The position numbers and the translations under genes are program-made. DNA of 64,000 nt from Nannocystis sp. RBIL2 (GTDB taxonomy: Bacteria; Myxococcota_A; Polyangia; Nannocystales; Nannocystaceae), in the NCBI RefSeq assembly GCF_026626745.1, contig NZ_JAPNJW010000001.1:844311-908310 (forward strand). The letters run 5' to 3'. Shown piece after piece: positions 1 to 63,340 of the stretch; positions within the stretch are counted from its first letter, which is position 1, and each line of letters begins with the position of its first letter. A model generated the notes under the pieces. It was given only the letters and a program-made list of their open reading frames with translations, was not told the DNA's origin and made no database searches.

Positions 1-666
1 CTCGTGGTACGACCCGGCGTAGATGTGGCGCTGGACCGTGTGCAGCCACTGATTCAGGTCGCGCACCGCCTGCGGGATCATGCGGTCGCCGAGCGCCAGC
101 AGCTCCTGCATCGCCGCCTTCAGCTGGCGCAGGCGCTCGCTCATGCTGTTCGGCAGCACCCACCGCCCGCGGTGCAGGATCCGGTCGATCGTGGTGTTGA
201 CGCGCCCGACCAGCGAGCGGAAGTGGCGCTGCAGCTCGGCGGTGTAGCGCGACAGGTCGAGCTCCCGGATGAAGCGGACCGCGTTGCCGGAGCCGAGGCG
301 GTTGAGCAGCTCGATCGCCTCGCGCAGCACCGGCGCCGCGTCGGCCGCGTTGCGACCGACCCGCGCGAGCAGCCGGCCCACGCCCTTGATCGCGCCGCCC
401 GCCACCGGGATCAGCGCGAACAGGCAGATCGCCAGCTCGACCCACTGCATGGTCTCCTGGCGCCGCTCGGGGTGGTCGGCGAGGCGGATGACCACCGCCA
501 GGAGGTCGCGCACCGCGGTGACGTCGCCGACCACGGGGATCATGCCGATGATCGCGTCGACGATGATCTGGCTGATCGACTGCTGCTCGTTGAACCCGCC
601 GCGGACGAGGCCCCAGATCCATTCACCGACGTCGGTGATGGCGCGCATGTACTCGCCGCCGCTCAT
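1..666 (-). CDS. Partial ORF (N-terminal 222 codons, runs off the window start). Candidate T6SS cargo effector or membrane protein with two hydrophobic Gly-zipper helices.
   Basis: The minus-strand frame is open across 1-666 (no in-frame TTA/CTA/TCA on the plus strand). It starts at ATG 666-664, which overlaps the PAAR gene stop as ATGA. I translated it by hand: MSGGEYMRAITDVGEWIWGLVRGGFNEQQSISQIIVDAIIGMIPVVGDVTAVRDLLAVVIRLADHPERRQETMQWVELAICLFALIPVAGGAIKGVGRLLARVGRNAADAAPVLREAIELLNRLGSGNAVRFIRELDLSRYTAELQRHFRSLVGRVNTTIDRILHRGRWVLPNSMSERLRQLKAAMQELLALGDRMIPQAVRDLNQWLHTVQRHIYAGSYHE.... I recognise no catalytic domain. Confidence 0.45.
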   Translation of the reverse strand, partial: MSGGEYMRAITDVGEWIWGLVRGGFNEQQSISQIIVDAIIGMIPVVGDVTAVRDLLAVVIRLADHPERRQETMQWVELAICLFALIPVAGGAIKGVGRLLARVGRNAADAAPVLREAIELLNRLGSGNAVRFIRELDLSRYTAELQRHFRSLVGRVNTTIDRILHRGRWVLPNSMSERLRQLKAAMQELLALGDRMIPQAVRDLNQWLHTVQRHIYAGSYHE

Positions 667-1289
667 CGCTGCTGGCCCTCGCCGGTGACGGCGTCGATCA
701 GCGCGTCGGCGTCGCTGTCGGAGAACTCTTCCTTGAAGGTCGGGTTCGGCGTCTGCTCTTTGCGCTCCCAGGTGCGCACGTCGGGCCCGTAGCGGACGCG
801 GGCCCGCTCGGGCGGCACGCCCTCGATGCGGGCCTGGCCGTTGGCGTCGAGCTTGCCCTTGAGGATCGTGCCGTCGCGCAGCTCGACCTCGTACTCGGCC
901 TCCTGCACCGGCTCGTCGTCGTGGTAGCGGTGGTCGAGGATCAGCGTGGTGTTGCGCTGCTTCTCGCACTCCTCGCAGAACGGCTTGTCGGTGCGCAGCG
1001 CCTCGACCTGGGCCGACGAGCCGATGATCACGGTCGGGCAGCCGACGACGATCGTGCCGCCGTGGGTGGTCGGGTCGCCGAGGCGCGCGGCCGGCTTGTT
1101 GCCGATGATCACCGACGGCTCGCCGCGGGCGACGCTGTCGGGGCCGGTCGCGCACACCAGCTTGTCGCCCTCGCGCGCGGCCGGCATCATGCCGATCAGC
1201 ACCGAGGTCTCGCCGACGACCACCGGGCCGCCGACGTGGGTCGGCACCGGGCACACGTGCATGTCAGTGATGCGGGCTGCGGGCGGCAT
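663..1289 (-). CDS. PAAR-domain protein (T6SS spike tip) with a C-terminal extension of about 110 aa.
   Basis: Three PAAR motifs are present (PAARITD, PAAREGD, PAARLGD), interspersed with Gly-rich beta segments. The gene sits 15 bp downstream of vgrG. Confidence 0.85.
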   Translation of the reverse strand: MPPAARITDMHVCPVPTHVGGPVVVGETSVLIGMMPAAREGDKLVCATGPDSVARGEPSVIIGNKPAARLGDPTTHGGTIVVGCPTVIIGSSAQVEALRTDKPFCEECEKQRNTTLILDHRYHDDEPVQEAEYEVELRDGTILKGKLDANGQARIEGVPPERARVRYGPDVRTWERKEQTPNPTFKEEFSDSDADALIDAVTGEGQQR

Positions 1290-1304
1290 GACGTGTCCTT
1301 CGGG

Positions 1305-3461
1305 TCAGATGCCGCCGCTGTCGGCCGGGTCGGGCTTGGTGGGCTCGACGGGCTTGGCCTCGTCGGGGTTCTGCGGGCCGGCGGCCGTACCGGTGAGCGC
1401 CGAGCCGCCGCTGTTGATCTTCACCAGAGTGCCGACGATGTCGATGCCGCCGGCGTGAATGGTGATGAAGCCGCCGGGGCCGCGGACGGTCAGCCCCTGC
1501 GACGCCTCGATCACGACCTTGGACGACTTGTAGTGGACCTCCTTGAGCGCCTCGACCGACAACAGGCCCGTGACCTTGCGGTGGACGTCGCCCAAGACCT
1601 GCTCGTGGTGGCCGCCGCCGATCTTGATCTTGAGGTCGGCCTTGATCTCGAGGCTCTGGCTCTGCATCACCAGCTCGCGGCGGTTGCCCTCGATGATGGT
1701 GTCGACGTGGCCGACGCCGTCGATGCCGCCGACGCGGATCCGCAGGTCGCCGCCGACGTGCTCGTTGCGGTTGCGATCGATGCGCCAGTGGTGGTCGCGC
1801 CAGATGTTCTCGTAGTAGTCGCCGATCTTGGCCCCGCCGTCGTTGCTGCCGACGGTCAGGTGGCGGTTGTGCAGCACGCTCTCCATCCGGTCGTGCAGGA
1901 CGCGGATGTCCATGTTGCGCTGCGCGTGCATGAAGATCTGCTCGATCCCCTTCTGGTCCTCGAAGCGCAGCTCGTTGTAGCCGGCCCCCTGGTAGGTGTC
2001 CGACTTGATGGTGCTCTTGGTCTTCTGCTCCGGCAGCGGGTACGGCGGCAGGTTGAGGCCGTGGTAGATCCGGCCGACGATCACCGGGCGGTCGGGGTCG
2101 CCCTCGATGAAGTCGACCAGCACCTCGTGGCCGATCCGCGGGATGAACATCGCGCCCCACGAGTTGCCGGCCCACAGCTGGCTGACGCGGACCCAACACG
2201 ACGAATCCTCGCTGAACTTGTCGCTGCGGTCCCAGTGGAACTGCACCTTCACCCGCGCGTGCTCGTCGACGTAGATCTCCTCGTTGGGCGGGCCGACCAC
2301 GGTGGCCGTCTGCACGCCTCTCACCGCGGGCCGCGGGGTCACGCGCGGCGGCCGGTACGGCGTCTTGGCCTCGATGCACACGAAGCTGTTGTTGTAGGAG
2401 AACTCGGTGCCGGCGTCCTGCTCGAGCACCTGCGACTGCTCGCCCTTGTGCTCGACGCGCAGCAGCTTGTAATCGCCGTCGAGGTCGCCGCGCTGGTGGC
2501 CGGCCTGCGTGAACGAGTAGCCGGGCACGAGCCGCGGGCAATCACTCTCGCCGAGGCCGCGGCGGCGGTCGTGCTGCATCGCCTCGAGACGGATCTTCGC
2601 CAGGCCGGCGCCCTGGTCGGAGCTGCGCCCGCCGCTGACCTGGTACTCGCCGGGGAAGTCGTAGACCTCGAGGTCGGTGGCCAGCTGCGCCGACTCGCTG
2701 GCGTCCATCTGCTGGTCGGGCTTGTGAAGGTTGTGGTCGCGCAGCGCGGACTTGCCGGTGCGCACGCCCTCGAGCAGGCGGAAGCGGGTGATGTGCTCCT
2801 GTCCGCGCACGAACCCGTGCGGGGGGGCCCACCACACCTCCTGCGGCCCCGCGATCGCCGGCGCGCCGGGCTTGTCGCTCATCACGAGCACGTGCTTCTC
2901 GGCGCTGTGCTCGAAGTAATAGTAGATGCCGTCCTCCTCGAGCAGCCGGCTGACGAAGTCCCAGTCCGACTCGCGGTACTGCACGCAGTAGTCGCGCGGG
3001 TTGTACGAGGAGAACAGGTCGAAGCGGAACCAGTCGCGCGGGATCCCGGCCTTCTCGAGCACCTCGCCGACGATCGTCTGCGTCGTCTTGCGCTGGAAGA
3101 TCCGGCTGTCCTGGCGCCGCGTCAGCCGCCACACCCGCGGCACGAAGGTCACCTCGTAGATGTGGTGCTGGCGCAGCTCGCCGCTGTACTCGGCGCCGCA
3201 TACGAGGCCGTGGATCTGGCGCGGCGACTCGACGCCACCGATCGTCAGCAGCGCCGGCTTGTCGACCAGCGCCGCGAGGTCGATCTCGGGACCCGCGAGC
3301 TCGATGCGCAGCTCGAACAGCGACGAGACCGCCTCGAAGCCAGCGAAGCGGACCACTTCGAGATCGCCGGCGGAGGCGGTGAACGTGAACAGCGCCGCGT
3401 TGCCCGTCAGCGCCGAGACCAAGTTGGCGATCAAACCCCTTCCACCCCCCGGACGCGCCAT
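1305..3461 (-). CDS. vgrG: T6SS spike protein VgrG.
   Basis: The product has the gp27/gp5-like VgrG sequence (FRFDLFSSYNPRDYCVQYRESDWDFVSRLLEEDGIYYYFEH ... VGRIYHGLNLPPYPLPEQKTKSTIKSDTY ... C-terminal beta-helix GGI). The ORF-track start at 4166 is an upstream extension. The likely start is ATG 3461 (MARPGGGRGLIANL), giving 719 aa. Confidence 0.9.
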   Translation of the reverse strand: MARPGGGRGLIANLVSALTGNAALFTFTASAGDLEVVRFAGFEAVSSLFELRIELAGPEIDLAALVDKPALLTIGGVESPRQIHGLVCGAEYSGELRQHHIYEVTFVPRVWRLTRRQDSRIFQRKTTQTIVGEVLEKAGIPRDWFRFDLFSSYNPRDYCVQYRESDWDFVSRLLEEDGIYYYFEHSAEKHVLVMSDKPGAPAIAGPQEVWWAPPHGFVRGQEHITRFRLLEGVRTGKSALRDHNLHKPDQQMDASESAQLATDLEVYDFPGEYQVSGGRSSDQGAGLAKIRLEAMQHDRRRGLGESDCPRLVPGYSFTQAGHQRGDLDGDYKLLRVEHKGEQSQVLEQDAGTEFSYNNSFVCIEAKTPYRPPRVTPRPAVRGVQTATVVGPPNEEIYVDEHARVKVQFHWDRSDKFSEDSSCWVRVSQLWAGNSWGAMFIPRIGHEVLVDFIEGDPDRPVIVGRIYHGLNLPPYPLPEQKTKSTIKSDTYQGAGYNELRFEDQKGIEQIFMHAQRNMDIRVLHDRMESVLHNRHLTVGSNDGGAKIGDYYENIWRDHHWRIDRNRNEHVGGDLRIRVGGIDGVGHVDTIIEGNRRELVMQSQSLEIKADLKIKIGGGHHEQVLGDVHRKVTGLLSVEALKEVHYKSSKVVIEASQGLTVRGPGGFITIHAGGIDIVGTLVKINSGGSALTGTAAGPQNPDEAKPVEPTKPDPADSGGI

Positions 3462-3517
3462 CGTAACAGAGCGGTGTACTGGCTGTTGCCGGCCGATGTC
3501 GCGCACAGGCCCGCGAC

Positions 3518-3530
3518 GGCAGGTCCTGCC
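3518..3530. promoter_or_regulatory. 13-bp palindrome GGCAGGTCCTGCC in the 99-bp divergent vgrG / ATP-grasp intergenic region. Candidate operator.
   Basis: Perfect dyad symmetry. It is the only substantial symmetric element between the two divergent start codons. Confidence 0.25.
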
Positions 3531-3560
3531 GCGCGCGCCGACGCCCGCTAGGATGCCCGC

Positions 3561-4463
3561 ATGCGCGTACTGTTCTGCACCGACCCGCTGCTCGAGCGCC
3601 GCCCCGATCGCGCGTTCGCGCCCGAGGTCGCGGCCGCCGACGCGGTCGGCATCGCGTGGTCGTGCGTCGACTTCGAGGCCCTGGTCGCGGGAGACGTCGG
3701 CGCTGCGCTGCGCCGGGTGCAGGCGAGCGAGGCCCTCGAGGTCGCTGTCTACCGCGGCTGGATGTTGCCGCCGGCGGCCTACGACGCGCTGCACGCCGGG
3801 CTCGGCGCGCGCGGCCTGCAGCTCGTCAACGACCCCGCGGCCTATCGCAGCGCCCACCTGCTGCCCGCCGCGCTGCCGCACCTCGGCGACGACACGCCGG
3901 AGACAGTCGTGCTGCCACGCGAGGACGGCCTGCAAGAGACACAGATCGCGGCCGCTCTGGCGCGCTTCGGCGGGCGTGCGCTCGTCGTCAAGGACTACGT
4001 CAAGTCGCGCAAGCACGAGTGGAATGACGCGTGCTTCATCCGCGCCGCCGACGACATCGCCCAGGTCCGTCGCGTGGTCGGCAACTTCATCGAGCGCCAG
4101 GGCGACGACCTCGTCGGCGGCCTGGTCTTCCGCGCCTACGAGCCGCTGGTGCCGCTCGGGAACCACCCGAGGAGCGGGATGCCCCTGCCCCGCGAATGGC
4201 GGCGCTTCATCGCCGATGGGCGCGCGCTCGTCGAGGCGCCGGCGTGGGAGATCGCCGACTCGGCTGTGCCGCCGGAGTTCGCCGACCTCGCGCGCCGCGT
4301 GCCGAGCCGCTTCTTCAGCCTCGACCTCGCCGAGCGTGCAGCGGGAGGTTGGACCGCGATCGAGCTCGGCGACGGCCAGGTCGCCGGCCTGCCGCCGCTG
4401 CTCGATCCGGAGGTCTTCTACCGGGCCCTGGCGGCCTGGGATCCGCAGCCGATCGATGCGTGA
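3561..4463 (+). CDS. ATP-grasp domain protein (DUF4343-like), divergent from vgrG.
   Basis: 300-aa ORF with protein-like composition. The ALVVKDYVKSRKHEWNDACFI and FRAYEP motifs resemble ATP-grasp DUF4343-family proteins. This assignment rests on memory of the family and was not computed. Confidence 0.5.
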   Translation: MRVLFCTDPLLERRPDRAFAPEVAAADAVGIAWSCVDFEALVAGDVGAALRRVQASEALEVAVYRGWMLPPAAYDALHAGLGARGLQLVNDPAAYRSAHLLPAALPHLGDDTPETVVLPREDGLQETQIAAALARFGGRALVVKDYVKSRKHEWNDACFIRAADDIAQVRRVVGNFIERQGDDLVGGLVFRAYEPLVPLGNHPRSGMPLPREWRRFIADGRALVEAPAWEIADSAVPPEFADLARRVPSRFFSLDLAERAAGGWTAIELGDGQVAGLPPLLDPEVFYRALAAWDPQPIDA

Positions 4464-5683: not shown

Positions 5684-5760
5684 GACATGTCCGTTTGGCC
5701 AGGCGCCGGCGCGGCCCGCCGTCGCGGGCGCACAAAAACGGCCATGTCCTCATGGACATG
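5684..5760. repeat. GRCATGYC palindromic units (CATG at 5686, 5743, 5757) flanking a long imperfect hairpin (GGACATGTCCGTTT ... AAACGGCCATGTCC), between the end of the vWA gene and the 45-bp repeat tract.
   Basis: Read directly in the sequence. The 14-bp stem has one mismatch and a GC-rich loop of about 36 nt. The 5743/5757 pair is 14 bp apart. Confidence 0.6.
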
Positions 5761-5810
5761 GCCGTGTGAGCAGGTTCGGCGTGCGCCTCGAAAGCCGCGC
5801 CTGCTCGACC

Positions 5811-6308
5811 TCATTGCGGGCGCGGCGGGACCGTGCCGGCCCACGTGATCGCCGGCCGCTTGCCGGCGGGCTTGCTCGGCTGCTTCGCCCGCTTCGGCGG
5901 CACCTTCCCGGCCCACGTGATCGCCGGCTGCTTCGCCTTCTTCGGCACCTCGCCCGCCCACGTGATCGCCGGCTGCTTCGCCTTCTTCGGCACCTCGCCC
6001 GCCCACGTGATCGCCGGCTTCTTCGCCTTCTGCGGCACCTCGCCCGCCCACGTGATCGCCGGCTGCTTCGCCTTCTGCGGCACTGCGCCGGCCGGCTTCG
6101 TCGCGGGGCGCTCGCTGGCGTCGACACGACGGGCCGGCTTGCCGCGGCCGTGCAGGCCCGGGTCGCCCGCGGAGCCCCAGCCGTAACCGCGGCTGGCCAT
6201 CCGCGGCGCGGGGCCGTCCGACCCCCAACCGCCGTGCGACGAGAGCGTGAGGCTGCAACCGGTCACGCTGAAGAGGAGCGCCAACAGGGTCAGGATGATC
6301 TTGTGCAT
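5811..6308 (-). CDS. Small lipoprotein of uncertain validity, with five tandem PAITWAGEVPKKAKQ repeats. The far end of the ORF is open in all three minus frames and may not be coding.
   Basis: The N-terminus MHKIILTLLALLFSVTGCS is a classical signal peptide with lipobox VTGC. The rest of the product is the repeat block. The ORFs that overlap it in other frames are Arg-rich repeat artifacts. Confidence 0.6.
   Translation of the reverse strand: MHKIILTLLALLFSVTGCSLTLSSHGGWGSDGPAPRMASRGYGWGSAGDPGLHGRGKPARRVDASERPATKPAGAVPQKAKQPAITWAGEVPQKAKKPAITWAGEVPKKAKQPAITWAGEVPKKAKQPAITWAGKVPPKRAKQPSKPAGKRPAITWAGTVPPRPQ
5826..6105. repeat. Five tandem 45-bp direct repeats (unit cacgtgatcgccggctgcttcgccttcttcggcacctcgcccgcc) lying within the far end of the 5811..6308 ORF, where reading is open in all three minus frames.
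   Basis: The units are visible at about 5836, 5897, 5950, 6002 and 6047. In the 5811..6308 frame they would encode the PAITWAG repeats, but which frame, if any, is translated there is unresolved. Confidence 0.8.
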
Positions 6309-6575
6309 TTTTTAAAAACCTCGGTGCTCACGGACGCGCGTTGGATCCGCCTATTCAGACTGTCGACATTCACTGCAGATCGGCCTCTGCTCACGGCGGG
6401 GCGGCCGCCGGCGCGGGAGGCGGCGAATCGATGGCAATGTCATGACATGGCCCAAAGGACATTTTCGTTCCGGCAGTCGCGGCGAGAGCTCTTCGCGGGC
6501 GCGGGCGTCCTGCGGCTCCCGCTCGCGCCACGAGGGGGCTGGACCTGGCGAGCTCGACGGGGCAAGCTCGCGGCC

Positions 6576-6899
6576 ATGGGCTCGATTCGTTGCGAGAGGC
6601 ACGGCCAATGCGGGACGCTCGGCGCCTGCGCTCACGTCTTCGCCGCGCGCGAGGAGGACCGCCCGATCGACCTGATCGAGGCGGAGTTGCTCTTCCGGGT
6701 GTGGATCTGCCGCGAGTGCGAGGCCCTGTTCGAGCGGGCGCTGGCGACCGGCGCGCGCGACGAGACCGTGATGCGGCGGCACCACGAGCTCGACCGCCTG
6801 GGGTGCTGGCGGTGCATGCAAGAGTGGCGGGAACGCCATGCCCTCTCGGCACGACGCTCGGACGTGGACCTGGACCGTCTGGACCGCGATCGATCGTAG
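6576..6899 (+). CDS. Small Cys-rich protein (107 aa), possibly a zinc-ribbon protein.
   Basis: ATG at 6576. Eight Cys arranged in pairs (CERHGQC, CAHVF, CRECEA, CWRC). The composition is not Arg/Pro-rich noise. The upstream part of the track ORF 5766..6899 is repeat artifact. Confidence 0.3.
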   Translation: MGSIRCERHGQCGTLGACAHVFAAREEDRPIDLIEAELLFRVWICRECEALFERALATGARDETVMRRHHELDRLGCWRCMQEWRERHALSARRSDVDLDRLDRDRS

Positions 6900-7059: not shown

Positions 7060-8172
7060 GTGCCCCGCGCCCTGCTCCTCTGCGCGCTCCTGCTCGCCTG
7101 CGCGCGTCAGACGGCGCCGGACAAGGCGCCGCCGGCCCCGCCGCCGGCTGTGGTCGAGGTCGATCCGTGCGCCCCGGCGCCTGTCCCCGGGGACAGCTCC
7201 CGCGCGCTGACCCGGGCCGACGTGCTGCTCCGCTGCGGCGACGACGCGGGCGCGCTGGCGATCCGGTTCGCCCTGCTGCGCCGCGATCCGGGCTCGACCG
7301 CGCGGGCCTACGCGCTGGCGGTGCTGGCCCACGAGTCGGGGCGGGTCGCCGACATCGACGCGGCCGTGGGCGAGCTGCCGCTGACGGCCGGCGCGCGCGC
7401 CGTCTACCGCCTGACCCGCGACGTCTCGGCGTACCTCGACTTCAGGGCGCGAAGGCCCGAGGACCTCGGCAAGCGCGACGGGCCGCTCGACGCGGCCGCG
7501 CTGGCGCGCGACGTCGCGGCCGCGCTGGCCGTCACCGCCGACGACCCCTACGCGCTGAGCCTGGCGCTGCGCTTCACCGCGCTGCACGACGCCGACCCGC
7601 GCGAACGGGCCGCGCCGATCTGCCGCGACCGCGCCGACCCGCTGCTCGCCCGCCTGCGCGACCGCGAGGGCGCGGCGGTGCTGGCGGCCGCGTGCGGGCG
7701 GATCGCCTTTCGCTCGGCCGATCCGGTGGACGGTCGGCGCCGCTTCGCCCGCGCGCTCGAGCTGGCGCCCGACGACCACGCCGCGGCGCTCGCCTGGGCC
7801 GCCGCCGAGCTCGCGGCCGGCAACCTCGACGAGGCGGTGCGGCTGTACCAGCAGGCCTCCGCCGCGCCCTCGCCGCGACTGCGCTACGCGGCGTTCCTCG
7901 GCCTCGGGGTGAGCCACGCCCGCCGCCGCGAGCGCGAGCCGGCCGAGGCCGCCTACCGCAGCGCGCTCGGCGAGCTCGGGCTCGACACCACGACGCCCGC
8001 CAAGCTGCCGCCGGAGCTGACCTTCAACCTGGGCATCCTGCTGGCCGACGCCGCCGACCCGGCCGCCCGCGCCGAGGCCCGCGCGCTCCTGCGGGCCTAC
8101 GTCGACAACCTCGGCGCCGACGAGCGCCGCCGCCTGCGCGCGCGGATCTTGCTGCGCGAGCTCGGCGATTGA
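7060..8172 (+). CDS. Lipoprotein with TPR-like helical repeats.
   Basis: The N-terminus MPRALLLCALLLACARQ has lipobox LLAC. The rest is Ala/Leu-rich alpha-helical repeat sequence. Confidence 0.65.
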   Translation: MPRALLLCALLLACARQTAPDKAPPAPPPAVVEVDPCAPAPVPGDSSRALTRADVLLRCGDDAGALAIRFALLRRDPGSTARAYALAVLAHESGRVADIDAAVGELPLTAGARAVYRLTRDVSAYLDFRARRPEDLGKRDGPLDAAALARDVAAALAVTADDPYALSLALRFTALHDADPRERAAPICRDRADPLLARLRDREGAAVLAAACGRIAFRSADPVDGRRRFARALELAPDDHAAALAWAAAELAAGNLDEAVRLYQQASAAPSPRLRYAAFLGLGVSHARRREREPAEAAYRSALGELGLDTTTPAKLPPELTFNLGILLADAADPAARAEARALLRAYVDNLGADERRRLRARILLRELGD

Positions 8173-8184
8173 GACTGTCTTCTC

Positions 8185-8268
8185 GGCCATGTCCCGATGG
8201 ACATGTCTTGATCGTCATGCTCGATGCGACATGCCCGATTCGACATGGTCTTTCAGGCATGTCTCGTC
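8185..8268. repeat. Six tandem 14-bp units with a GRCATGYC dyad core.
   Basis: CATG at 8188, 8202, 8216, 8230, 8244 and 8258, exactly 14 bp apart. The units are ggccatgtcccgat, ggacatgtcttgat, cgtcatgctcgatg, cgacatgcccgatt, cgacatggtctttc and aggcatgtctcgtc. They lie between the convergent genes 7060..8172(+) and 8423..10792(-). Confidence 0.85.
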
Positions 8269-8422
8269 GACCTGGGCGAGCCCGTCGCCATGGCCCCCCT
8301 CGCCTCACCGCGAGCTCGCAACCTTGTCCGCGCGCCGGCGGAGACCGCCCGCCTTCTTTAAAAACTCGGTCCCCGCGCTTCACTGCAGCGAGCCCGCGCC
8401 CGCCCTTCGGAGGCTCCCCGCC

Positions 8423-10778
8423 TCATCGCGGTGGGCCCGACGCTCTCGCAGCCGCGCCGACGATCACCCGTCCGTCGTGGTCGGGCGCGTACTCCAGCGG
8501 CTCCTCGTAGCGACCGACCAGGCGGCCGAGGCCTGCACGGCACAGGGCGCTCTGGCCTCCGGCGTCGTGGCCCCACGCGGCCACGTGGTCGAGGCAGCGG
8601 GCGTAGGCCGTGAACACCGCCTCGCGGCGCTGGGCTGCCAGCTCGCGCATCTGCTGGGCCAGGCCGGCGTCGCCGGCGGCCTCGACGGCGGCGGCCACCT
8701 CGTCGAGCAGCGCCAGGTCGGACTCGTACACCTGCGCCTTGCGGGTCTCGACCAGCGCCGCCGACTGATCGCGGCCGCCGGCCCCGCCCGCGATCGCGGT
8801 CTCGTAGACCGCGCTCATGCGCTCGACCTCGGCCTTGCGGACCTCGAGCCACGCGCGCGAGCGGGCCGGGTCGAGGCTCTTCGGCGGCTGGCTGGTGAGC
8901 GCCGACTCGGCGTCGAGGTCGCCCTGCAGCAGCGCGACCTGGCGGCTGGCGGTCCGCGCCTCCTCGGCGTCGACGGCGATCGGCGCCTCGAGCTTGTCGA
9001 CCTCGCCGCCGCTGACCTCGGGCAACAGCTTCTGCGCGCGGTCGAGGTGCTCGCGGCCCTTGGCGTGCGGCTTGGGCAGGCGGGCGATCACCCGCGCCGG
9101 CGTGCGGTCGCGGCCGAATTCGACGCACAGGCCCTCGGCCCCGGGGACCGGGCAGGACGCCCGCAGCCACGCCTCGGCCGCGCGCGCGTGGGCGATCGCC
9201 AGCCGCCGCGGCCCGCCCTCCTTGCCGAACCGCTCGATGTACTTCTCGGCCGCCTCGGGCGTGACGCCGGGGCGGAACACCGCGCGGAACTGGATCGCCG
9301 CCGCCAGCGTGCGCTCCTCCGGGCGGCCGCGGATCAGCGCGTCGAGCTGTCCTTCGGGCAATGTCCCGGCGCGCAGGCTCAGGATCAGCGAGCGGCGGCG
9401 AGCGGTCGCTGCGGCGCGGTGCCGCGGGGCGCGGGCCACCAGATCGAGGTAGCGATCGCGGGCCTGCTCGTCGTTCAAGATCCGCTCGTGCAAGCGGGCC
9501 AGCCGCAGCACCGCGTCGGGGGCCCGCGGGTCCTCGCGGTGGACGTCGGCCATGCGCTCGAGCCAGTCGATCGCCTTCTGCGTCAGGCCGGCGCGCTCGT
9601 AGCAGCGACCGGCGCCGTCGGCCGCCTCGGCAGCCGCGTGGATGTCGGCGCCGAGGTCGGCGTAGAGCCCCTCGAAGGCCGCGCCGCAGCGGGCGTCGTC
9701 ACCGACCGCCTCCGACTCCTCGGCCTGGGCCCACAGCGCCGCGCGCCGCAGCGCCGCCACCTGGGCCACCTGCGGCCCGCCGGCGGCCTCGACCTCGACG
9801 GCCACGGTGACCAGGGCGACGCGGGCGGCCGAGCGCTCGCCGGCGCTGGCGGCCTCCATCCAGCGCGCCAGCAGCAGGCCGACCAGCAGCACCCGCGCCT
9901 GCTCGCGCGCCGGCCCGCTGACGGCGCTCAGGCTGGTCTCGGCCTCGTCCCAGCGGCGGTATCGCATCAGCAGCTCGGCCCGCTCGACCGCGACCTGCCC
10001 GGCCTCGGGCGTGCCCTGCAGCCCGGGCTCGGCGAGGAAGGCGTCGTAGGCGGCCAGCCACTCGCGGTCGCCGGCCGTCATCTCGCCGGGGGCGACGCGC
10101 GGGACGGGGTCGGTGCAGCGGCCCCGCGGATCCGGCAAACATGTCTGTTCAGACATGACCCATGGAGCAGGCTCCCCCTCGCGCACGCGCCGGACCGCGT
10201 CGAGCTGGGCGCGGGCCGAGCGGGCGGCCTGCTCGGTCGGCAGGCCGCCGGCCAGGGCGGCGCGGTGGTGGGCGTGGGCCTCGCGCAGCGCCTCGTCGGT
10301 CAAGGTGCGCTCGCCGATCTCGAGCGTCAGCCGCTCGGCGCGGGCCCACTCGAGCTTGCCCATCGCGTGGTGCAGCAGCGGCGCCTCGGCCTCGGCGGGG
10401 AAGTGCTTGCGCAGCGCCGCGTAGGCCTGGCGGGCCAGCGCGTGGCTCTGCGACCCGCCCGACTCGGCCCCCTGCTCGGCCCAGCGCAGCGTCACGGTCG
10501 TCAGCGCTGCGCGGGTCGCCTCGGCGCAGCGGGTCGCGTCGGGCCGGCCGCGGGTCGCCGCGTGGGCCTGGACCAGCAGCTCGATCTCTTCCCAGAGGTA
10601 GCGATCGGCGAGGCGCACCAGCCCGTCCTGGACCGCGCTCGCCTGCTTGTCGCAGGCCGCCACCGCCGCCGCACCGGATGTCTCCAAGGACATGTCCTTG
10701 GGGGCACCTGGCTCCGCGGTCGTCGGCCCGCGCGGGGCGCAGGCGAGCGTCAGCAGCAGCGCCAGCGCGGCCCGGCGC

Positions 10779-10792
<14 letters not shown>
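8423..10792 (-). CDS. Large (about 790 aa) alpha-helical TPR-like lipoprotein, downstream of the kinase.
   Basis: The N-terminus MARRERRAALALLLTLACAP is a signal peptide with a lipobox. The rest is Ala/Arg/Leu-rich helical repeat sequence. The start was chosen at ATG 10792 and overlaps the kinase stop by 14 nt. GRCATGYC units are embedded in the ORF at 10130/10144 and 10677/10691. Confidence 0.6.
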
Positions 10793-12662
<1,870 letters not shown>

Positions 12663-12754: not shown

Positions 12755-13198
12755 ATGCACTTTCGCCCGGCCACCAGCTCCGATGTCCCCGCGATCCTCG
12801 ACATGATGGAGGACTTCAACCGCCTGGAGCACATCCCGTGGCGCCGCGGACCCGGCGAGGCGCCGCTGCGGACCCTGATCGGCTCGCCCGGTCTCGGCAC
12901 CGTGGTCCTCGGCCTCGACGGCGACGCGCCGCTCGGCTACTTCGTGCTCACCTGGGGCTTCGACCTCGAGTGGGGCGGTCGCGACGCTTTCCTCACCGAG
13001 CTGTATCTGCGGGCCGAGGTCCGCGGCGCCGGTCGCGGCCGCCTGTTCCTCGACGCCGCCCTCGCCTCGGCCCGCGCCCACGGGGCCCGCGCGGTCCACC
13101 TGATGGTCCGCACCGACAACACGCCCGCCATCGAGCTCTACCGCCGCTCCGGCTTCACCGCCCCGCCGCGGGTGCTCATGACGCGGCCGCTCGACTGA
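12755..13198 (+). CDS. GNAT family N-acetyltransferase.
   Basis: 147 aa. The product has an acetyl-CoA binding-like region ([29 protein letters not shown]). A TATAGT -10-like box sits upstream. Confidence 0.8.
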
Positions 13199-13210
13199 GT
13201 TCTGTCCTTC

Positions 13211-13266
13211 AGGGCATGTTCACCTCGACATGTCCTCTCGGACATTCTTCCGAGGACATGTCCTCG
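13211..13266. repeat. Four tandem 14-bp GRCATGYC-core units.
   Basis: CATG at 13215, 13229, (CATT 13243) and 13257, exactly 14 bp apart. They lie between the convergent genes 12755..13198(+) and 13270..14550(-). Confidence 0.8.
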
Positions 13267-19526: not shown

Positions 19527-19542
19527 AAGGTGACCTTTTGGA

Positions 19543-19700
19543 CATGCCCCATCGGGCATGACTGAAAGAGCAGCAGGCTCACCGTGACGACGGTGTGCGA
19601 CGCTGCGAGACATGGCCATTCCGGAATGTCCCGAAGGTCATCCGGACATTCCGACAAGGGCGACATTGTGATGACATGCCCTGAAGGACATATCATCACA
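19543..19700. repeat. Longest GRCATGYC array: about nine units, partly degenerate, with 12-16 bp spacing.
   Basis: CATG or CATN cores at 19543, 19557, 19611, 19625, 19639, 19647, 19663, 19675 and 19688. They lie between the convergent genes MOSC(+) and the S1/P1 nuclease(-). Confidence 0.75.
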
Positions 19701-60315: not shown

Positions 60316-60384
60316 CCGCGCACCCGCCGTAGCTCGCCGGCCGCACGGCCGCGGGCGCGCCTGGCCTGCGGGTGGCTGTCTTTA

Positions 60385-60454
60385 TGGGCATGCCCGAAAG
60401 GCCATGCTCCTCGGACCATGAAAAAGGGGACATGCTCGGACGAGCATGTCCCCC
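60385..60454. repeat. Five tandem 14-bp GRCATGYC-core units.
   Basis: CATG at 60389, 60403, 60417, 60431 and 60445, exactly 14 bp apart. They lie between the convergent genes yceI-like(+) and the BlaR1-like gene(-). Confidence 0.85.
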
Positions 60455-60477
60455 CGGACTCCTGCGAAGCTACAGTC

Positions 60478-62679
60478 TCACTTCACGCGGACCTGGCGGG
60501 CCGCCTCGCTGATCTTGCGCTGCTCCTCGGCGTCGATCACCCCGTCGCGCAGCGCCTCGTCGACCGCGCTGCGGACGGCGGCCGCGGCCCGCGAGGCCTC
60601 GGCCTTGTTGCGGCCCTTCTCGGCCTGCCGCGAGGCCCGCTCGCGCGCCCGCTCGGCCCGCTCGCGCGCCCGGTCGCCCTGTTCGCGCGCCCGGTCGCCC
60701 CGCTCGCGCGCCCGGTCCGCCCGCTCGCGCGCCCTCTCGGCGTCCTCCCGGGCCCGGTCGGCCTGCTCGCGCGCCCTCTCGACGCCGCGGAGCGACGCCT
60801 TGACCCCGCGCTGCACGTCGGCGGCGATCTTGTCGAAGTCGATGCCCTCCAGCTCGCGCTCGATCTGCTCGTCGAGGCCCTCGAGCTGGGCTTCGACCTG
60901 GGCCGCGATCGCCTCGGCCTGGGCCGCGATCGCCTCCTCGTCGATGTCCGGCACGTAGAACACGGGCGGGGGGACGGCCACGTGCGGCACGGCGATCGGC
61001 CGGACCATCACGTCGTGATCGTCGTCGTCGCAGTCGTCGTGGTCGTGCGCGACCACGACCTTGAAGCTGGGCGGCGTCGGCGGAGTCGGCGGCGTCGGCG
61101 GTGTGGGCGGCGTCGGCGGCGTCACGTGCGACACCGGCACGTACACCGCGTGCGTCGCCGGCACCGCGTACAGCCCGCTCTTGGCGCGCAGCTTGGCCGC
61201 CTTGCGGGCGTGCCGCTCGGCGCGGCGCAGCAGTCGCTTCTGCTTGCGGGTCAGCTCCTGCGCATGCTCGACGACGATGATCTCGTGCCCGTGGACCGCG
61301 TGGTCGTGCGGCGTCCGCACGGCCACGATCGGCGTCTCGGGCACGTGGACGAACGACAGCGTCGGCTGCGGCGCCGGCCCGTTGTCGGGCGCCGTCGGCC
61401 ACTCCTCCGGGGCACCTTGCGCCTCGGCCGCGATCGACAGCCCGGGCGCGCCGAACGTCACCATCGCCAGCAGCGCCGCGCCGAGGGCCACCCGCCAGCG
61501 CCGGGCCCACAGGCCGCGGTCGCGCAGGTGCACGTCGAGCAGGCGCTGCACCCGGCGCACCAGCTGCGAGGCGTGCCCCGCCATCGGGCTGGCGAACGCC
61601 GACATGTCCCGATGACCAGGCCACGCCGCGACCTCGGTCAGGCAGCGCGCCAGGTGCACCTCCGAACCGGTGTGGCGGACCGCCCAGTCGTCGCACAGCT
61701 CCTCCGCCGCCTCCTGCATGCCGCGGCGGGCCACTCGATTGAGCGGCTGGAAGAACAGCAGCGACTCGACGAACCCCGCCAGCACCTGCCACGCCGGATC
61801 GCGGCGCAGCACGTGGGCCAGCTCGTGGGCCAGCATCGCCTCCTGCTGCCGCGGCGCCAGCTCGCGCACCTGCTCCGGCACCACGATCTCGCGGCCGGTG
61901 AGGGCGATCGGCGAGCTGATGTCCGCGGACTCGCTCAGCGTGACGCTGTGGCCGGGCAGCCGCGCGTGGGCCAGCAGCCGCGTCAGGCGCTCGCGCAGCG
62001 AGCCCGAGCCGAGCAGGCGACGACCGCGGAGCCCGCGGCGCATACGGGAGAACGTCATCCCGAGCCGGCCGAGCGAGGCCGCGGCGCCGAACACGAACAG
62101 CCCCGCGAACGCCCACACCGCCGCGCTCACGCCCCCCATCGGGCCCGCAGTCGCTATCTGCATCGGCGCGGCCGCCAGCGGCGGTGCGGTCGTCGGCGCG
62201 GGCAACGGCGTCGGCGCGACCGCCCAGCCCGGCGCGTCCACGAACAGCGGCGGCGAGGCGAACACCGCCGTGATGTCGTCGTCGCTGACGACCACCAGGT
62301 GCGACTCGCAGCCGACGCACGCGCGGGTGAACGGCACCAGCAGCGTCGCCGGCTCCTCCTCGATCACCGGCGGCGGCGGGGCTGCCGTCGTCGGCGCGGT
62401 CACGGCCGGGCTGCTCGCCGCCACGGTGACGCGGCCGAACATCGGCTCGACCCCGAGCCCCGTCTGCAGCGTCGCCGTGAACAGCCCGCCGACCAGCGAT
62501 GTCTTCCACAGCAAGCTGCGGGTCAGCGCGTCGAGCGGCAGGAAGCGGCTGAACATCCACACGCCGCCGATGAGCACCGTCGAGTGGACGAAGTAGGTGC
62601 CGAGCCAGCTCACCGTCGTGTGAGCGGCCGGCGCCGCGAGACCGGCGAGGCCGGCAGGATCGATCGCAAGATCAAACAT
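60478..62679 (-). CDS. BlaR1/MecR1-family M56 peptidase-type signal transducer. The C-terminal region is TPP repeats plus an RARE-repeat coiled coil, with no penicillin-binding sensor domain.
   Basis: Four N-terminal TM helices. MLAHELAHVLRRD is the HEXXH zinc site. TPPTPPTPPTPPTPP and RAREQADRAREDAERARERADRARERGDRAREQGDRARERAERARERA are encoded by 9- and 36-bp tandem repeats. Confidence 0.8.
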   Translation of the reverse strand: MFDLAIDPAGLAGLAAPAAHTTVSWLGTYFVHSTVLIGGVWMFSRFLPLDALTRSLLWKTSLVGGLFTATLQTGLGVEPMFGRVTVAASSPAVTAPTTAAPPPPVIEEEPATLLVPFTRACVGCESHLVVVSDDDITAVFASPPLFVDAPGWAVAPTPLPAPTTAPPLAAAPMQIATAGPMGGVSAAVWAFAGLFVFGAAASLGRLGMTFSRMRRGLRGRRLLGSGSLRERLTRLLAHARLPGHSVTLSESADISSPIALTGREIVVPEQVRELAPRQQEAMLAHELAHVLRRDPAWQVLAGFVESLLFFQPLNRVARRGMQEAAEELCDDWAVRHTGSEVHLARCLTEVAAWPGHRDMSAFASPMAGHASQLVRRVQRLLDVHLRDRGLWARRWRVALGAALLAMVTFGAPGLSIAAEAQGAPEEWPTAPDNGPAPQPTLSFVHVPETPIVAVRTPHDHAVHGHEIIVVEHAQELTRKQKRLLRRAERHARKAAKLRAKSGLYAVPATHAVYVPVSHVTPPTPPTPPTPPTPPTPPSFKVVVAHDHDDCDDDDHDVMVRPIAVPHVAVPPPVFYVPDIDEEAIAAQAEAIAAQVEAQLEGLDEQIERELEGIDFDKIAADVQRGVKASLRGVERAREQADRAREDAERARERADRARERGDRAREQGDRARERAERARERASRQAEKGRNKAEASRAAAAVRSAVDEALRDGVIDAEEQRKISEAARQVRVK

Positions 62680-63082
62680 CGTCGTGTTCCTCAGCTCCGC
62701 CGGATCGTTCGGCCAATAGTCGTTGCAGGCGCGCGACGTCGTCCGGTTCGACGCTGCGGCCTTCGACGAGGTGGCTGACCAGCGCCGCCACGTCCCCGCC
62801 GAAGAAGTAATCGGTGAGCCTGCCCAGCATCGAGCGCCTCACGTCCACCTCGCACACGAGCGCCCGGTAGATGAACTGCCGGCCCTCCGTGCGGTGCGCG
62901 ATGGTCCCCTTCTTCTCCAGCCGCGACAGCATCGTCGACACCGTCGTCGGCGCGAGCCCCCGATCTTGCTCGACCAGAGCCGCATGCACCTCGAGCGCCG
63001 TCGCCTCCCCGCGGTCCCACAAGATCCGCAGCAGGCCGAGCTGCAGATCGCTGAGCTGGAGTACCTCACCCATGAACGACAA
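62672..63082 (-). CDS. BlaI/MecI/CopY-family transcriptional repressor.
   Basis: LSDLQLGLLRILWDRGEATALEVHAALVEQ ... TVSTMLSRLEKKGTI is the winged-helix penicillinase-repressor fold. It overlaps the BlaR1-like start by 8 nt. Confidence 0.85.
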   Translation of the reverse strand: MSFMGEVLQLSDLQLGLLRILWDRGEATALEVHAALVEQDRGLAPTTVSTMLSRLEKKGTIAHRTEGRQFIYRALVCEVDVRRSMLGRLTDYFFGGDVAALVSHLVEGRSVEPDDVARLQRLLAERSGGAEEHDDV

Positions 63083-63270
63083 GCGTAGTACTACAGGTGT
63101 AGTAAGCCGTCAAGCGAGATTTTTCAGCCCCTGGCGGCCTTCCAGAGCGAGTGCGCGAAAACGCTCCGACCTGCACTTTCGTACATGTCAACCGTCCGAC
63201 GCGCAGTCAGCGCAGGCCATTGTTCGCGCTCCTTTAATGGGCTCGACCGTGGCCGACGTGCTCCATTCGA

Positions 63271-63340
63271 CATGTGCACATAGACATGTCTAATAGGACA
63301 CTAATATTAAAACATTACCTGAAGAACATGTCCATTCGTG
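63271..63340. repeat. AT-rich variant of the 14-bp array (5 units) in the blaI-like upstream / divergent region. It includes the perfect palindromes ATGTGCACAT and TAGACATGTCTA.
   Basis: CATG or CAYT cores at 63271, 63285, 63299, 63313 and 63327, exactly 14 bp apart. At about 45% GC, this is the most AT-rich 70 bp in the window. Confidence 0.75.

What the first reader, a model, noticed from the sequence alone, without database searches (positions are those of the whole stretch)
8185..8268. Cleanest array: six units at exactly 14.0-bp spacing
The units are ggccatgtcccgat, ggacatgtcttgat, cgtcatgctcgatg, cgacatgcccgatt, cgacatggtctttc and aggcatgtctcgtc. This array gives the best unit definition: an 8-bp dyad core plus a GAT-containing spacer. 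It lies in a 250-bp convergent gap, and there is no conventional hairpin terminator there.
Basis: seen in the sequence. Interest (0 to 1): 0.6.

Follow-up and report, generated by a model that had tools for sequence, protein, structure and literature searches.

The report
Phased CATG palindrome arrays after genes
The six-unit repeat is real and is one copy of a previously undescribed, Nannocystis-wide family of short palindromes (GGRCATGYCC) held in an exact 14-bp register just after stop codons, mostly between convergent genes. It looks like a new kind of gene-end punctuation that is read by a factor not yet identified.

Summary
Six CATG cores lie exactly 14 bp apart at 8188-8258; triplets of such cores occur 7 times in the window against 0.01 expected. 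The window comes from Nannocystis (71% G+C). The array belongs to a family with unit nnGGRCATGYCCnn. Register is strict: 222 CATG pairs at 14 bp against 2 at 13 and 4 at 15. Spacers are unrelated and AT-enriched. The motif is 27-fold denser in intergenic than in coding DNA. Arrays start a median of 9 nt after a stop codon. By context, 33 lie in convergent gaps, 11 in tandem gaps and 2 in divergent gaps. Arrays occupy the same two gene ends in four other Nannocystis-type genomes, with CATG and register kept while spacers are randomised. In a partial scan of 185,579 species, every array of this type came from Nannocystis. Neighbouring units pair no better than random units, unit order is not tuned for folding, and no T-run follows the arrays. 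A minority of perfect inverted pairs with T-runs are ordinary terminators. My best reading (0.4) is a bidirectional gene-end boundary element read in 14-bp register by a symmetric sequence-specific DNA-binding factor. The main rival is REP/BIME-like RNA hairpins. It is a new variant of a known kind. No factor was identified.

The parts
7060..8172 (+). Upstream gene (TPR-like, 370 aa). Its TGA stop is at 8170-8172, 11 nt before the first full unit.
   Evidence: ORF and GC3 frame analysis; weak TPR Pfam hits; 96% identical to a N. pusilla protein.
8169..8182 (.). Left terminal degenerate unit TTGAGACTGTCTTC. It overlaps the stop codon, and only the array-proximal half (TGTCTT) is in register.
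   Evidence: In-register print. Family-wide, terminal units keep the proximal half-site (T 35-50%, G 67-73%).
8183..8266 (.). Six full 14-bp units. Cores: 8185-8194 GGCCATGTCC, 8199-8208 GGACATGTCT, 8213-8222 CGTCATGCTC, 8227-8236 CGACATGCCC, 8241-8250 CGACATGGTC, 8255-8264 AGGCATGTCT.
   Evidence: Exact 14-bp spacing. Triplets of in-phase CATG: 7 in the window (4 of them in this array) vs 0.01 expected. Units fit the family matrix nnGGRCATGYCCnn.
8267..8280 (.). Right terminal degenerate unit TCGACCTGGGCGAG (CATG lost).
   Evidence: In-register print.
8269..8422 (.). Rest of the gap. It has no aligned counterpart in N. pusilla Na p29, where the gap is 133 bp rather than 250 bp. It contains a weak terminator-like hairpin with a T-rich tail at 8337-8360 (+).
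   Evidence: Pairwise alignment; terminator scan; true gene end in L001 is 11247.
8423..10792 (-). Convergent downstream gene (about 800 aa, no clear domain). Its stop codon is at 8423-8425.
   Evidence: ORF and GC3 analysis. The C-terminal 199 aa are 97% identical to the N. pusilla ORF L001 11247-11852.
13196..13266 (.). Sister array: 4 units plus a terminal half unit. It fills the 71-bp gap between the stop of a + GNAT gene (13198) and the stop of a - DUF3089 gene (13270).
   Evidence: It aligns in register with arrays after the GNAT gene in four other genomes.
60370..60455 (.). Sister array: 5 units plus a terminal unit, between a + YceI-like gene (stop 60315) and a - BlaR1-like gene (stop 60478). 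Its last two units form a perfect hairpin followed by T5 on the - strand.
5738..5765 (-). Two-unit member of the family: CGGCCATGTCC-TCAT-GGACATGGCCG followed by T5 on the - strand. It is a canonical intrinsic terminator for the - gene 5811-6308.
   Evidence: Terminator scan. The hairpin sequence is identical in L001 and L002, and expanded to 4 units in L003.
19539..19700 (.). Degenerate sister array in a tandem (- -) gap, next to the stop of the S1/P1 nuclease gene (19719).
63267..63337 (.). Atypical, AT-rich in-phase units (3 CATG plus 2 degenerate). They lie 185-255 bp upstream of a blaI-like gene and 337 bp from the nearest stop codon.

Best explanation
The array is one copy of a Nannocystis-specific family of intergenic 'CATG-14' arrays. 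These are near-palindromic decamers GGRCATGYCC kept in an exact 14-bp register immediately after stop codons, and preferentially where two genes converge. They are most likely cis-acting gene-end boundary elements. A symmetric (dimeric), sequence-specific factor would bind successive units side by side on duplex DNA. Fourteen bp turns each site about 120 degrees round the helix, and three units make 42 bp, or four turns. The resulting protein-DNA block would stop or insulate transcription arriving from either side. Hairpins formed by neighbouring units in the transcript are a secondary property. That property is exploited in a minority of copies: perfect inverted pairs followed by a T-run, which are ordinary intrinsic terminators. 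SHOWN: the family, its matrix, its strict register, its 3'-end and convergent location, its conservation of place with rapid internal turnover, and the lack of pairing-specific selection. INFERRED: that the reader of the motif is a DNA-binding protein, and that the outcome is termination or insulation.
For: Register: in 351 kb of Nannocystis DNA there are 222 CATG-CATG pairs at 14 bp, 147 at 28, 97 at 42 and 53 at 56, against 2 at 13 and 4 at 15. Meanwhile the spacers are at random-level identity (0.27-0.31). Base identity, not only complementarity, is conserved. A unit whose two neighbours have CATG has CATG itself in 133 of 147 cases. The matrix is strand-symmetric. Units behave as independent draws. 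There is no lag-specific similarity. The R/Y positions that would pair in a hairpin sit exactly at independence (T-A 44, T-G 39, C-A 33, C-G 25 of 192). Native unit order folds no better than permuted order (-0.39 +/- 0.45 kcal/mol, n=40). For this array the native order is worse (-31.5 vs -35.8). Only 1 of 112 array flanks has a T-run. Location: the motif occurs at 1.48 per kb in intergenic DNA vs 0.054 per kb in coding DNA. By context there are 33 convergent, 11 tandem and 2 divergent arrays, against 48, 99 and 50 gaps available. The median distance to the nearest stop is 9 nt. In tandem gaps, 9 of 11 arrays lie closer to the upstream stop. Conservation: arrays are present and in register after the same two genes in five genomes, including an exact 14-nt unit indel and a compensated change that preserves 28-bp spacing.
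Against: No binding protein was identified or could be searched for. Sites for DNA-binding proteins are usually in promoters, not at 3' ends. The arrays do fold well as RNA on both strands (z -3.4 and -4.2). Perfect inverted pairs are over-represented (6.8% vs 1.4%), and 6 of 17 carry a T/A-run, so they are real terminators built from the motif. Other convergent gaps in the window carry ordinary hairpins, so an RNA-level role is the economical default. There are weak, non-significant trends toward sense-strand G-U tolerance (142 vs 112) and an A-to-T gradient across convergent arrays. The gene calls behind the context counts come from my own GC3-based caller. Most loci were also ascertained for having at least 5 units.
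Confidence: 0.4

Rival explanations
1. REP/BIME-like RNA hairpin array. Neighbouring self-complementary units pair in the transcript from either strand. They give a stack of hairpins that act, without a DNA-binding factor, as bidirectional terminators and/or 3'-end stabilisers. The shared core reflects common descent or a REP-type transposase.
For: The arrays lie at 3' ends and in convergent gaps. Folding is strong on both strands. Canonical terminators are built from two units (5738-5765, 60427-60454). Perfect pairs are in excess. The 4-nt spacers are AT-rich and loop-like, including GAAA. Arrays grow in situ by 14-nt unit duplication (L078, the metagenome arrays, and the L001 unit indel). 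E. coli REP325, a REP cluster, acts as a 3'UTR terminator and stabiliser and gives a ladder of truncated transcripts (bioRxiv 10.64898/2026.03.23.713779).
Against: Hairpins do not need invariant CATG, loops of exactly 4 nt, or linkers of exactly 4 nt, yet off-register spacings are nearly absent. There is no covariation at stem positions, and A-C mismatches occur at the chance rate. Unit order is not tuned. No U-tract follows 111 of 112 flanks. Only the decamer is conserved, not a 20-40 nt REP. No transposase was found among 60 flanking genes.
Confidence: 0.27
2. A selfish, mobile short repeat (REPIN/MITE-like) that accumulates where insertions are harmless, namely convergent gaps, and has no function for the host.
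For: The distribution by gap type (convergent > tandem > divergent) is what tolerance alone predicts. Unit number differs between close genomes. Some arrays are recently expanded, with near-identical units.
Against: Arrays persist at the same gene ends out to 66% flanking-protein identity. Over that distance CATG and register are retained while the spacers randomise, which indicates purifying selection at each locus. No multi-unit module is shared between loci. No transposase gene lies nearby. There are no hits in viral contigs.
Confidence: 0.08
3. The phased motifs are read in the nascent RNA by a multimeric RNA-binding terminator. For example, a Rho hexamer whose six primary sites each take a YC dinucleotide about every 12-14 nt, or a TRAP-like ring. 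The palindrome would let one DNA array serve both transcripts.
For: A strict pitch suits a ring of identical subunits. Each unit offers YCC on both strands. Five to eight units span 70-112 nt, which is similar to a Rho footprint (own knowledge). The arrays lie at 3' ends.
Against: Rho sites are C-rich, G-poor and unstructured. These units have G equal to C by symmetry and fold strongly. Invariant CATG is not explained by YC recognition.
Confidence: 0.07
4. A local operator array for a regulator of the neighbouring genes. One candidate is a PadR-type site, since ATGY-CCnnnnGG-RCAT across each spacer matches the canonical ATGT-N8-ACAT. Another is a BlaI-type site.
For: The canonical PadR operator is ATGT/ACAT separated by 8-10 nt (PMC3506622). 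A blaI-like/blaR1-like operon in the window is flanked by arrays.
Against: There is roughly one array per 10 kb, next to unrelated housekeeping genes. The arrays sit after stop codons, not in promoters, and only 2 of 50 divergent gaps carry one.
Confidence: 0.04
5. A chance arrangement or an ordinary 14-bp tandem repeat (minisatellite).
For: Tandem Repeats Finder reports a weak period-14 repeat here.
Against: Seven in-phase triplets were found against 0.01 expected. Spacer identity is 0.39 here, against 0.7-1.0 in true period-7 or period-14 tandem repeats from other phyla. The same architecture recurs at dozens of loci.
Confidence: 0.01

Closest known systems
REP/BIME elements (repetitive extragenic palindromes) of enterobacteria and pseudomonads, e.g. 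E. coli REP325
   Same: Both are abundant and strictly extragenic. Both are palindromic and clustered in arrays. Both are concentrated at 3' ends and between convergent genes. Copy number varies between strains, and both can form hairpins on either strand. REP325 acts as a 3'UTR terminator and stabiliser.
   Different: Here the unit is 14 bp, not about 35 bp, and only a decamer is conserved. Each arm is itself a palindrome, so units have no orientation. Every spacer is exactly 4 nt and unrelated in sequence. No conserved GTAG-type tetranucleotide and no RAYT gene were seen. Units behave as independent draws from a matrix, not as copies of a master sequence.
Bidirectional intrinsic terminators between convergent genes
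   Same: Both lie in convergent gaps close to both stop codons and are symmetric on the two strands. Two-unit members with A/T tracts (5738-5765, 60427-60454) fit the definition fully.
   Different: Most arrays have 4-8 units and no flanking A/U tracts (1 of 112 flanks). They share an invariant sequence core, which a hairpin does not need.
Tandem operator or iteron arrays bound cooperatively by dimeric repressors (MetJ met-boxes: 8-bp palindromes repeated 2-5 times; ribbon-helix-helix ParR/omega arrays; own knowledge)
   Same: Both are short palindromic sites repeated head to tail at a fixed pitch. Each site is independently degenerate, and the spacers are free.
   Different: Those arrays lie in promoters or centromeres at one or a few loci, and their protein is known. 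These lie after stop codons at an estimated thousand loci, with a 14-bp pitch and no known protein.
PadR-family operator ATGT-N8-ACAT (PMC3506622)
   Same: Read across a spacer, each pair of half units is ATGY-CCnnnnGG-RCAT. That is the same half-sites at the same spacing, with centres 10-12 bp apart, a geometry typical of winged-helix dimers.
   Different: Successive sites here overlap by sharing CATG. They are not in promoters, and no PadR gene is linked. This is a resemblance only.
p53 response-element half-site RRRC(A/T)(A/T)GYYY (consensus quoted in PMC2665222)
   Same: GGRCATGYCC is a perfect match to the decamer, including the dominant CATG core. This shows that two protein subunits can read such a 10-bp palindrome.
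   Different: That is a eukaryotic factor whose half-sites are usually adjacent, not 4 bp apart. No p53-like protein is known or was sought in Nannocystis. The match is most likely coincidence.

Membership tests
REP/BIME | Many copies, confined to extragenic DNA | tested here: met
   The motif occurs at 1.48 per kb in intergenic DNA vs 0.054 per kb in coding DNA. There are 12 arrays in 127 kb of loci not selected for arrays.
REP/BIME | Each repeat is a 20-40 nt imperfect palindrome conserved over its whole length (with a conserved 5' tetranucleotide) | tested here: not met
   Only a 10-bp core is conserved. Spacers are at random identity, and no module is shared between loci.
REP/BIME | Associated RAYT (Y1 transposase) gene flanked by the repeats | not testable with these tools
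   There was no transposase among the listed families for 60 genes flanking arrays (only 25 of 57 families were shown).
Intrinsic (Rho-independent) terminator | G+C-rich hairpin directly followed by a U-tract, downstream of a stop codon | tested here: not met
   For the focal array there is hairpin potential but no T-run. Family-wide, 1 of 112 flanks has T4+. The feature is met only by the two-unit members 5738-5765 and 60427-60454.
Structured RNA element maintained by base pairing | Covariation or complementarity between pairing partners beyond what composition gives | tested here: not met
   Partner R/Y positions are at independence. Native unit order folds the same as permuted order. There is only a 5% excess of perfect pairs.
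Tandem operator/iteron array for a DNA-binding protein | Short symmetric sites at a fixed pitch, each independently degenerate | tested here: met
Tandem operator/iteron array for a DNA-binding protein | A cognate protein that binds the sites | not testable with these tools
   This needs EMSA, pull-down or DAP-seq. The published M. xanthus CdbA motif is a direct repeat, not this one.
PadR operator | ATGT-N8-10-ACAT in the promoter of a padR-linked gene | tested here: inconclusive
   The sequence architecture is met across each spacer. The promoter location is not met. Linkage to a padR gene was not examined.
Plain tandem repeat (minisatellite) | Units are near-identical copies of each other | tested here: not met
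   Identity at non-CATG positions is 0.39 here, against 0.7-1.0 in tandem repeats from other phyla found with the same pattern.
Rho utilisation (rut) site | C-rich, G-poor, weakly structured RNA | tested here: not met
   The matrix is symmetric, so G equals C, and the region folds strongly.
Uptake-sequence or HIP1-type over-represented word | Enrichment throughout the genome, including coding DNA | tested here: not met
   Coding density is 0.054 per kb, near the compositional expectation of 0.02. CATG is neither avoided nor strongly enriched in coding DNA (O/E 1.16).
Any Rfam family | Match to a curated covariance model | tested here: not met
   There were no gathering-score hits in the whole window. 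At E<=1 the gap region gave only a chance hit, located inside coding DNA.

The most novel reading that the evidence does not exclude
Nannocystis has a lineage-specific, chromatin-like boundary system. An abundant symmetric DNA-binding protein polymerises in a 14-bp, three-start helical register on about a thousand arrays of p53-half-site-like decamers. These arrays are placed at gene ends, above all where transcription units collide. The complex works as a bidirectional roadblock terminator or insulator, which is a mode of genome punctuation not described in bacteria.
Probability: 0.3. Interest if true: 0.85.

Novelty: new variant of a known kind. Interest (0 to 1): 0.65.

Why it matters
If the arrays are gene-end signals, they are a sequence-defined 3' boundary that can be read straight off the genome of a poorly studied, natural-product-rich group of myxobacteria. 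That would help with annotating operon ends, and one deposited gene call already runs through an array in the wrong frame. It would also supply compact bidirectional terminators for engineering in high-G+C hosts. The combination of an invariant core, a rigid 14-bp pitch and free spacers implies a dedicated reader, either a protein or a transposase. If it is a DNA-bound roadblock, it would be a new bacterial solution to convergent transcription. The family is also a clean natural case for separating selection on sequence from selection on pairing in palindromic repeats, a question still argued for REP elements.

Tried and rejected
**Known families and literature**
- Known RNA families: no Rfam hits at gathering score or at E<=1. 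The only tRNA is elsewhere in the window.
- Literature: searches for the core sequence, for Nannocystis intergenic repeats and for myxobacterial REPs found nothing relevant.
- The CdbA nucleoid protein of M. xanthus binds a direct repeat, not this motif.

**Simple explanations**
- Plain tandem repeat or chance: rejected.
- Restriction-site avoidance or a methylation clue: CATG is not depleted in coding DNA (O/E 1.16; ACATGT 1.5, GCATGC 0.93).

**Tests for hairpin tuning and RNA-level signals**
- Unit-order permutation, lag analysis and partner covariation were all null, apart from a small excess of perfect pairs.
- U-tract after arrays: absent.
- A/T gradient of spacers across convergent arrays: suggestive when pooled (p about 0.01) but not per array (16 vs 14; Wilcoxon p=0.09).
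- Sense-strand G-U bias: 142 vs 112, not significant, and confounded by a slight asymmetry in the matrix.

**Comparison with N. pusilla**
- Shifted alignment of the window array against the N. pusilla array, to explain its divergence by unit gain or loss: no shift does better than the in-phase alignment.

**Linked genes and wider distribution**
- Recurrent flanking gene or transposase: none among 60 neighbours.
- Phage origin: no hits in viral contigs.
- Arrays with another pitch in more distant relatives (L115-L117): the apparent 12, 15 and 36 bp spacings are coding sequence or plain repeats.

**Terminal half units**
- I tested whether they show that the functional site is centred on the spacer. 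The asymmetry is only weak once ends near coding DNA are excluded (G 67% vs C 45%, n=53).

Full report
**1. The observation**

The window is 71% G+C. CATG occurs at 8188, 8202, 8216, 8230, 8244 and 8258, so six cores are separated by exactly 14 bp. Three in-phase CATGs occur seven times in the window, against 0.01 expected from dinucleotide-preserving shuffles.

The array starts 11 nt after the TGA (8170-8172) of a + strand TPR-like gene. It lies in a 250-bp gap that ends at the stop (8423) of a - strand gene.

- The conserved core is the 10-mer GGRCATGYCC, not an 8-bp dyad.
- GAT in the spacer is a local accident.
- The array is flanked on each side by one degenerate in-phase unit.

**2. It is one of a family**

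Other in-register arrays in the window:

| Window coordinates | Context |
|---|---|
| 13196-13266 | Fills the 71-bp gap between two stop codons |
| 60370-60455 | Between two stop codons |
| 5738-5765 | Two-unit member |
| 19539-19700 | Degenerate copy in a tandem gap |
| 63267-63337 | AT-rich and atypical |

The upstream protein is 96% identical to a N. pusilla protein, so the window is from Nannocystis.

Of these, 28 were from five Nannocystis species. All arrays with unrelated spacers (identity 0.3-0.5) came from these 28 Nannocystis loci; one of the 28, L078, is instead a recent near-identical expansion. The other 82 loci, from many phyla, were plain period-7 or period-14 tandem repeats (identity 0.53-1.0, nearly all 0.7-1.0).

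A metagenome scan with three consensus units gave 35 contigs, 33 of them with 71-77% G+C. Viral contigs gave none.

No paper in the searchable library describes these arrays, and Rfam has nothing matching.

**3. Anatomy**

I analysed 351 kb of Nannocystis DNA (window, three orthologous loci, 28 scan loci).

- *Spacing.* CATG-CATG distances peak at 14 (222 pairs), 28 (147), 42 (97) and 56 (53). There are 2 pairs at 13 and 4 at 15.
- *Matrix.* From 258 units the matrix is nnGG[A/G]CATG[T/C]CCnn. It is strand-symmetric. G/C at the outer core positions is about 70%, and R/Y next to CATG is about 87%. The two central spacer positions are 53-62% A+T, in a genome that is 29% A+T.
- *CATG conservation.* Without ascertainment, a unit flanked by two CATG units has CATG itself in 133 of 147 cases.
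- *Independence of units.* Units in one array are no more alike, directly or as reverse complements, than random units at any lag.
- *Half-sites.* Hetero half-sites (GGACATGCCC, GGGCATGTCC) are somewhat favoured over perfect palindromes.
- *Recent expansions.* Some arrays are recent expansions of one unit (L078 and several metagenome contigs). One locus carries a 71-bp higher-order repeat of three units.

**4. Where the arrays sit**

The motif occurs at 1.48 per kb in intergenic DNA and 0.054 per kb in coding DNA.

Gene context was assigned with a GC3-based gene caller of my own:

| Gap type | Arrays | Gaps of that type in the same loci |
|---|---|---|
| Convergent | 33 | 48 |
| Tandem | 11 | 99 |
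| Divergent | 2 | 50 |

- In convergent gaps the median distance to the nearer stop codon is 9 nt. In 16 of 33, both stops are within 40 nt.
- In tandem gaps, 9 of 11 arrays lie closer to the upstream gene's stop (median 22 nt) than to the downstream start (median 122 nt).
- Three arrays were scored 'inside genes'. On inspection one is clearly, and a second probably, a gene-calling error; the third (L074) remains ambiguous.
- In the window itself, 4 of 10 convergent gaps carry units, as do 2 of about 20 tandem gaps and 0 of 11 divergent gaps. The other convergent gaps hold ordinary G+C-rich hairpins.
- Flanking genes are unrelated housekeeping and miscellaneous genes. No transposase was found.

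**5. Evolution**

An in-register array follows the same TPR gene in N. pusilla, N. punicea, Nannocystis sp. SCPEA4 and a metagenomic relative whose TPR protein is 66% identical. It is absent at 45% identity, although those more distant contigs have 3-4-unit arrays elsewhere.

The array after the GNAT gene is likewise present in all five genomes. It aligns with the CATG columns conserved and with one exact 14-nt unit indel.

I compared the window with N. pusilla Na p29:

| Positions compared | Identity |
|---|---|
| Third codon positions of the flanking gene | 93.5% |
| Focal array, CATG | 22/24 |
| Focal array, core flanks | 23/36 |
| Focal array, spacers | 9/24 |
| GNAT array | 77% |

No shifted alignment of the focal array does better than the in-phase one. 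A CATG-to-CAGT change there is compensated so that the 28-bp spacing is kept. The GNAT array also has 16 gap columns. In contrast, the two-unit terminator at 5738-5765 is identical in three genomes.

So place, core and register are under constraint, while the remainder turns over faster than synonymous sites. That last point rests on two loci only.

**6. Hairpins or binding sites?**

*For hairpins:*
- The focal region folds at -52.6 kcal/mol on the + strand and -51.0 on the - strand (z -3.4 and -4.2). As DNA it forms the 7-bp stem CATGTCC-CGAT-GGACATG.
- Perfect inverted neighbours are over-represented (6.8% vs 1.4%). Six of 17 perfect pairs are followed by a T-run, against 5 of 205 imperfect pairs, so true intrinsic terminators are built from the motif.
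- E. coli REP clusters work as 3'UTR terminators and stabilisers.

*Against hairpins as the selected property:*
- The R and Y positions that would pair between neighbours sit exactly at independence. This includes 17% A-C mismatches in mid-stem.
- Native unit order folds no better than permuted order (-0.39 +/- 0.45 kcal/mol). The focal array is worse than its permutations.
- No T-run follows 111 of 112 flanks.
- Hairpins need complementarity, not an invariant CATG, and they tolerate 3-8-nt loops and any linker. Here every spacer is exactly 4 nt although its sequence is free.

Weak trends toward sense-strand G-U tolerance and an A-to-T gradient are not significant.

A rigid pitch, base-identity conservation, strand symmetry and independent degeneracy of sites are the signature of a lattice of binding sites for a symmetric factor.

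On geometry, 14 bp rotates successive sites by about 120 degrees, and three sites span four helical turns. Read across a spacer, each pair of half units is ATGY-N8-RCAT, which is the canonical PadR-type operator architecture (PMC3506622). Read unit by unit, the decamer equals the p53 half-site consensus (PMC2665222). Both are resemblances, not tests.

**7. Verdict**

That the array is a member of a genus-specific family of gene-end elements is well supported (about 0.85).

How it works is open. I favour a bidirectional boundary or termination element read on duplex DNA by a symmetric sequence-specific factor (0.4). The rivals are:
- REP/BIME-like RNA hairpins (0.27)
- A merely selfish repeat (0.08)
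- A phased RNA-binding multimer such as Rho (0.07)
- A local operator (0.04)

The array fails defining features of REP elements, of intrinsic terminators, of covariation-maintained RNAs, of rut sites and of plain tandem repeats. It therefore works like several of these but is a member of none. I rate it a new variant of a known kind.

**8. Limits**

- Most loci were ascertained for having at least 5 exact CATG units.
- Gene context depends on my own gene caller.
- There are no expression, methylation or binding data.
- The putative factor could not be searched for with the tools available.

Noticed in passing
window 5738-5765 (- strand): A canonical intrinsic terminator is built from two family units: CGGCCATGTCC-TCAT-GGACATGGCCG followed by T5. 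The hairpin sequence is identical in N. pusilla and N. punicea. In Nannocystis sp. SCPEA4 the same site has four units.
   Followed up: yes
window 8269-8422: About 150 bp between the array and the - gene stop has no counterpart in N. pusilla Na p29. It contains a weak hairpin with a T-rich tail (8337-8360). Its origin is unknown.
   Followed up: partly
window 60478-63082 and 63267-63337: A blaI-like repressor gene (62672-63082, Penicillinase_R) and a blaR1-like M56 peptidase gene (60478-62679) form an operon flanked by arrays. The upstream one is AT-rich, far from any stop codon and atypical. It could be an operator rather than a gene-end array.
   Followed up: partly
L001 11152-13635 (N. pusilla Na p29, deposited gene call): The deposited 827-aa gene call runs through the array in a frame unrelated to the window protein. 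The ORF ending at 11247 is 97% identical to the window C-terminus. The annotated 3' end therefore looks wrong.
   Followed up: yes
window 10136-10163; L114 12873-12890: Two in-phase CATG units lie inside the coding region of the roughly 800-aa gene and are conserved in a distant relative. They are probably a coding coincidence.
   Followed up: no
L067 7715-7968; L078 3544-3627: L067 has a 71-bp higher-order tandem repeat in which each copy holds three units. L078 has an array of six near-identical units (TCGGACATGCACGT). These suggest that arrays grow by slippage.
   Followed up: partly
family-wide (258 units): Within a unit the two halves differ more often than chance predicts. GGACATGCCC and GGGCATGTCC are favoured over GGACATGTCC and GGGCATGCCC (121 hetero vs 75 homo; chi-square about 13). 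This is unexplained.
   Followed up: partly
window 663-4166: Type VI secretion spike genes: VgrG (1305-4166, Phage_GPD/Gp5) and a PAAR protein (663-1289), both on the - strand.
   Followed up: no
window 5877-6083: A 45-bp tandem repeat of 4.5 copies with 93% matches, in a stretch with overlapping long ORFs on both strands (5766-6899 +, 5811-6308 -).
   Followed up: no
window 60635-60781 and 61070-61123: Tandem repeats of 21, 42 and 63 bp and of 9 bp lie inside the blaR1-like gene. They encode RARE/DRARE-type and PTPP repeats.
   Followed up: no
L116 about 12830-12900: A run of about 75 consecutive C residues lies in an intergenic region of a Nannocystis sp. MAG. It may be an assembly artefact.
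   Followed up: no
coding DNA of all Nannocystis loci (295 kb): CTAG is strongly avoided (observed/expected 0.07), whereas CATG is not (1.16).
   Followed up: no
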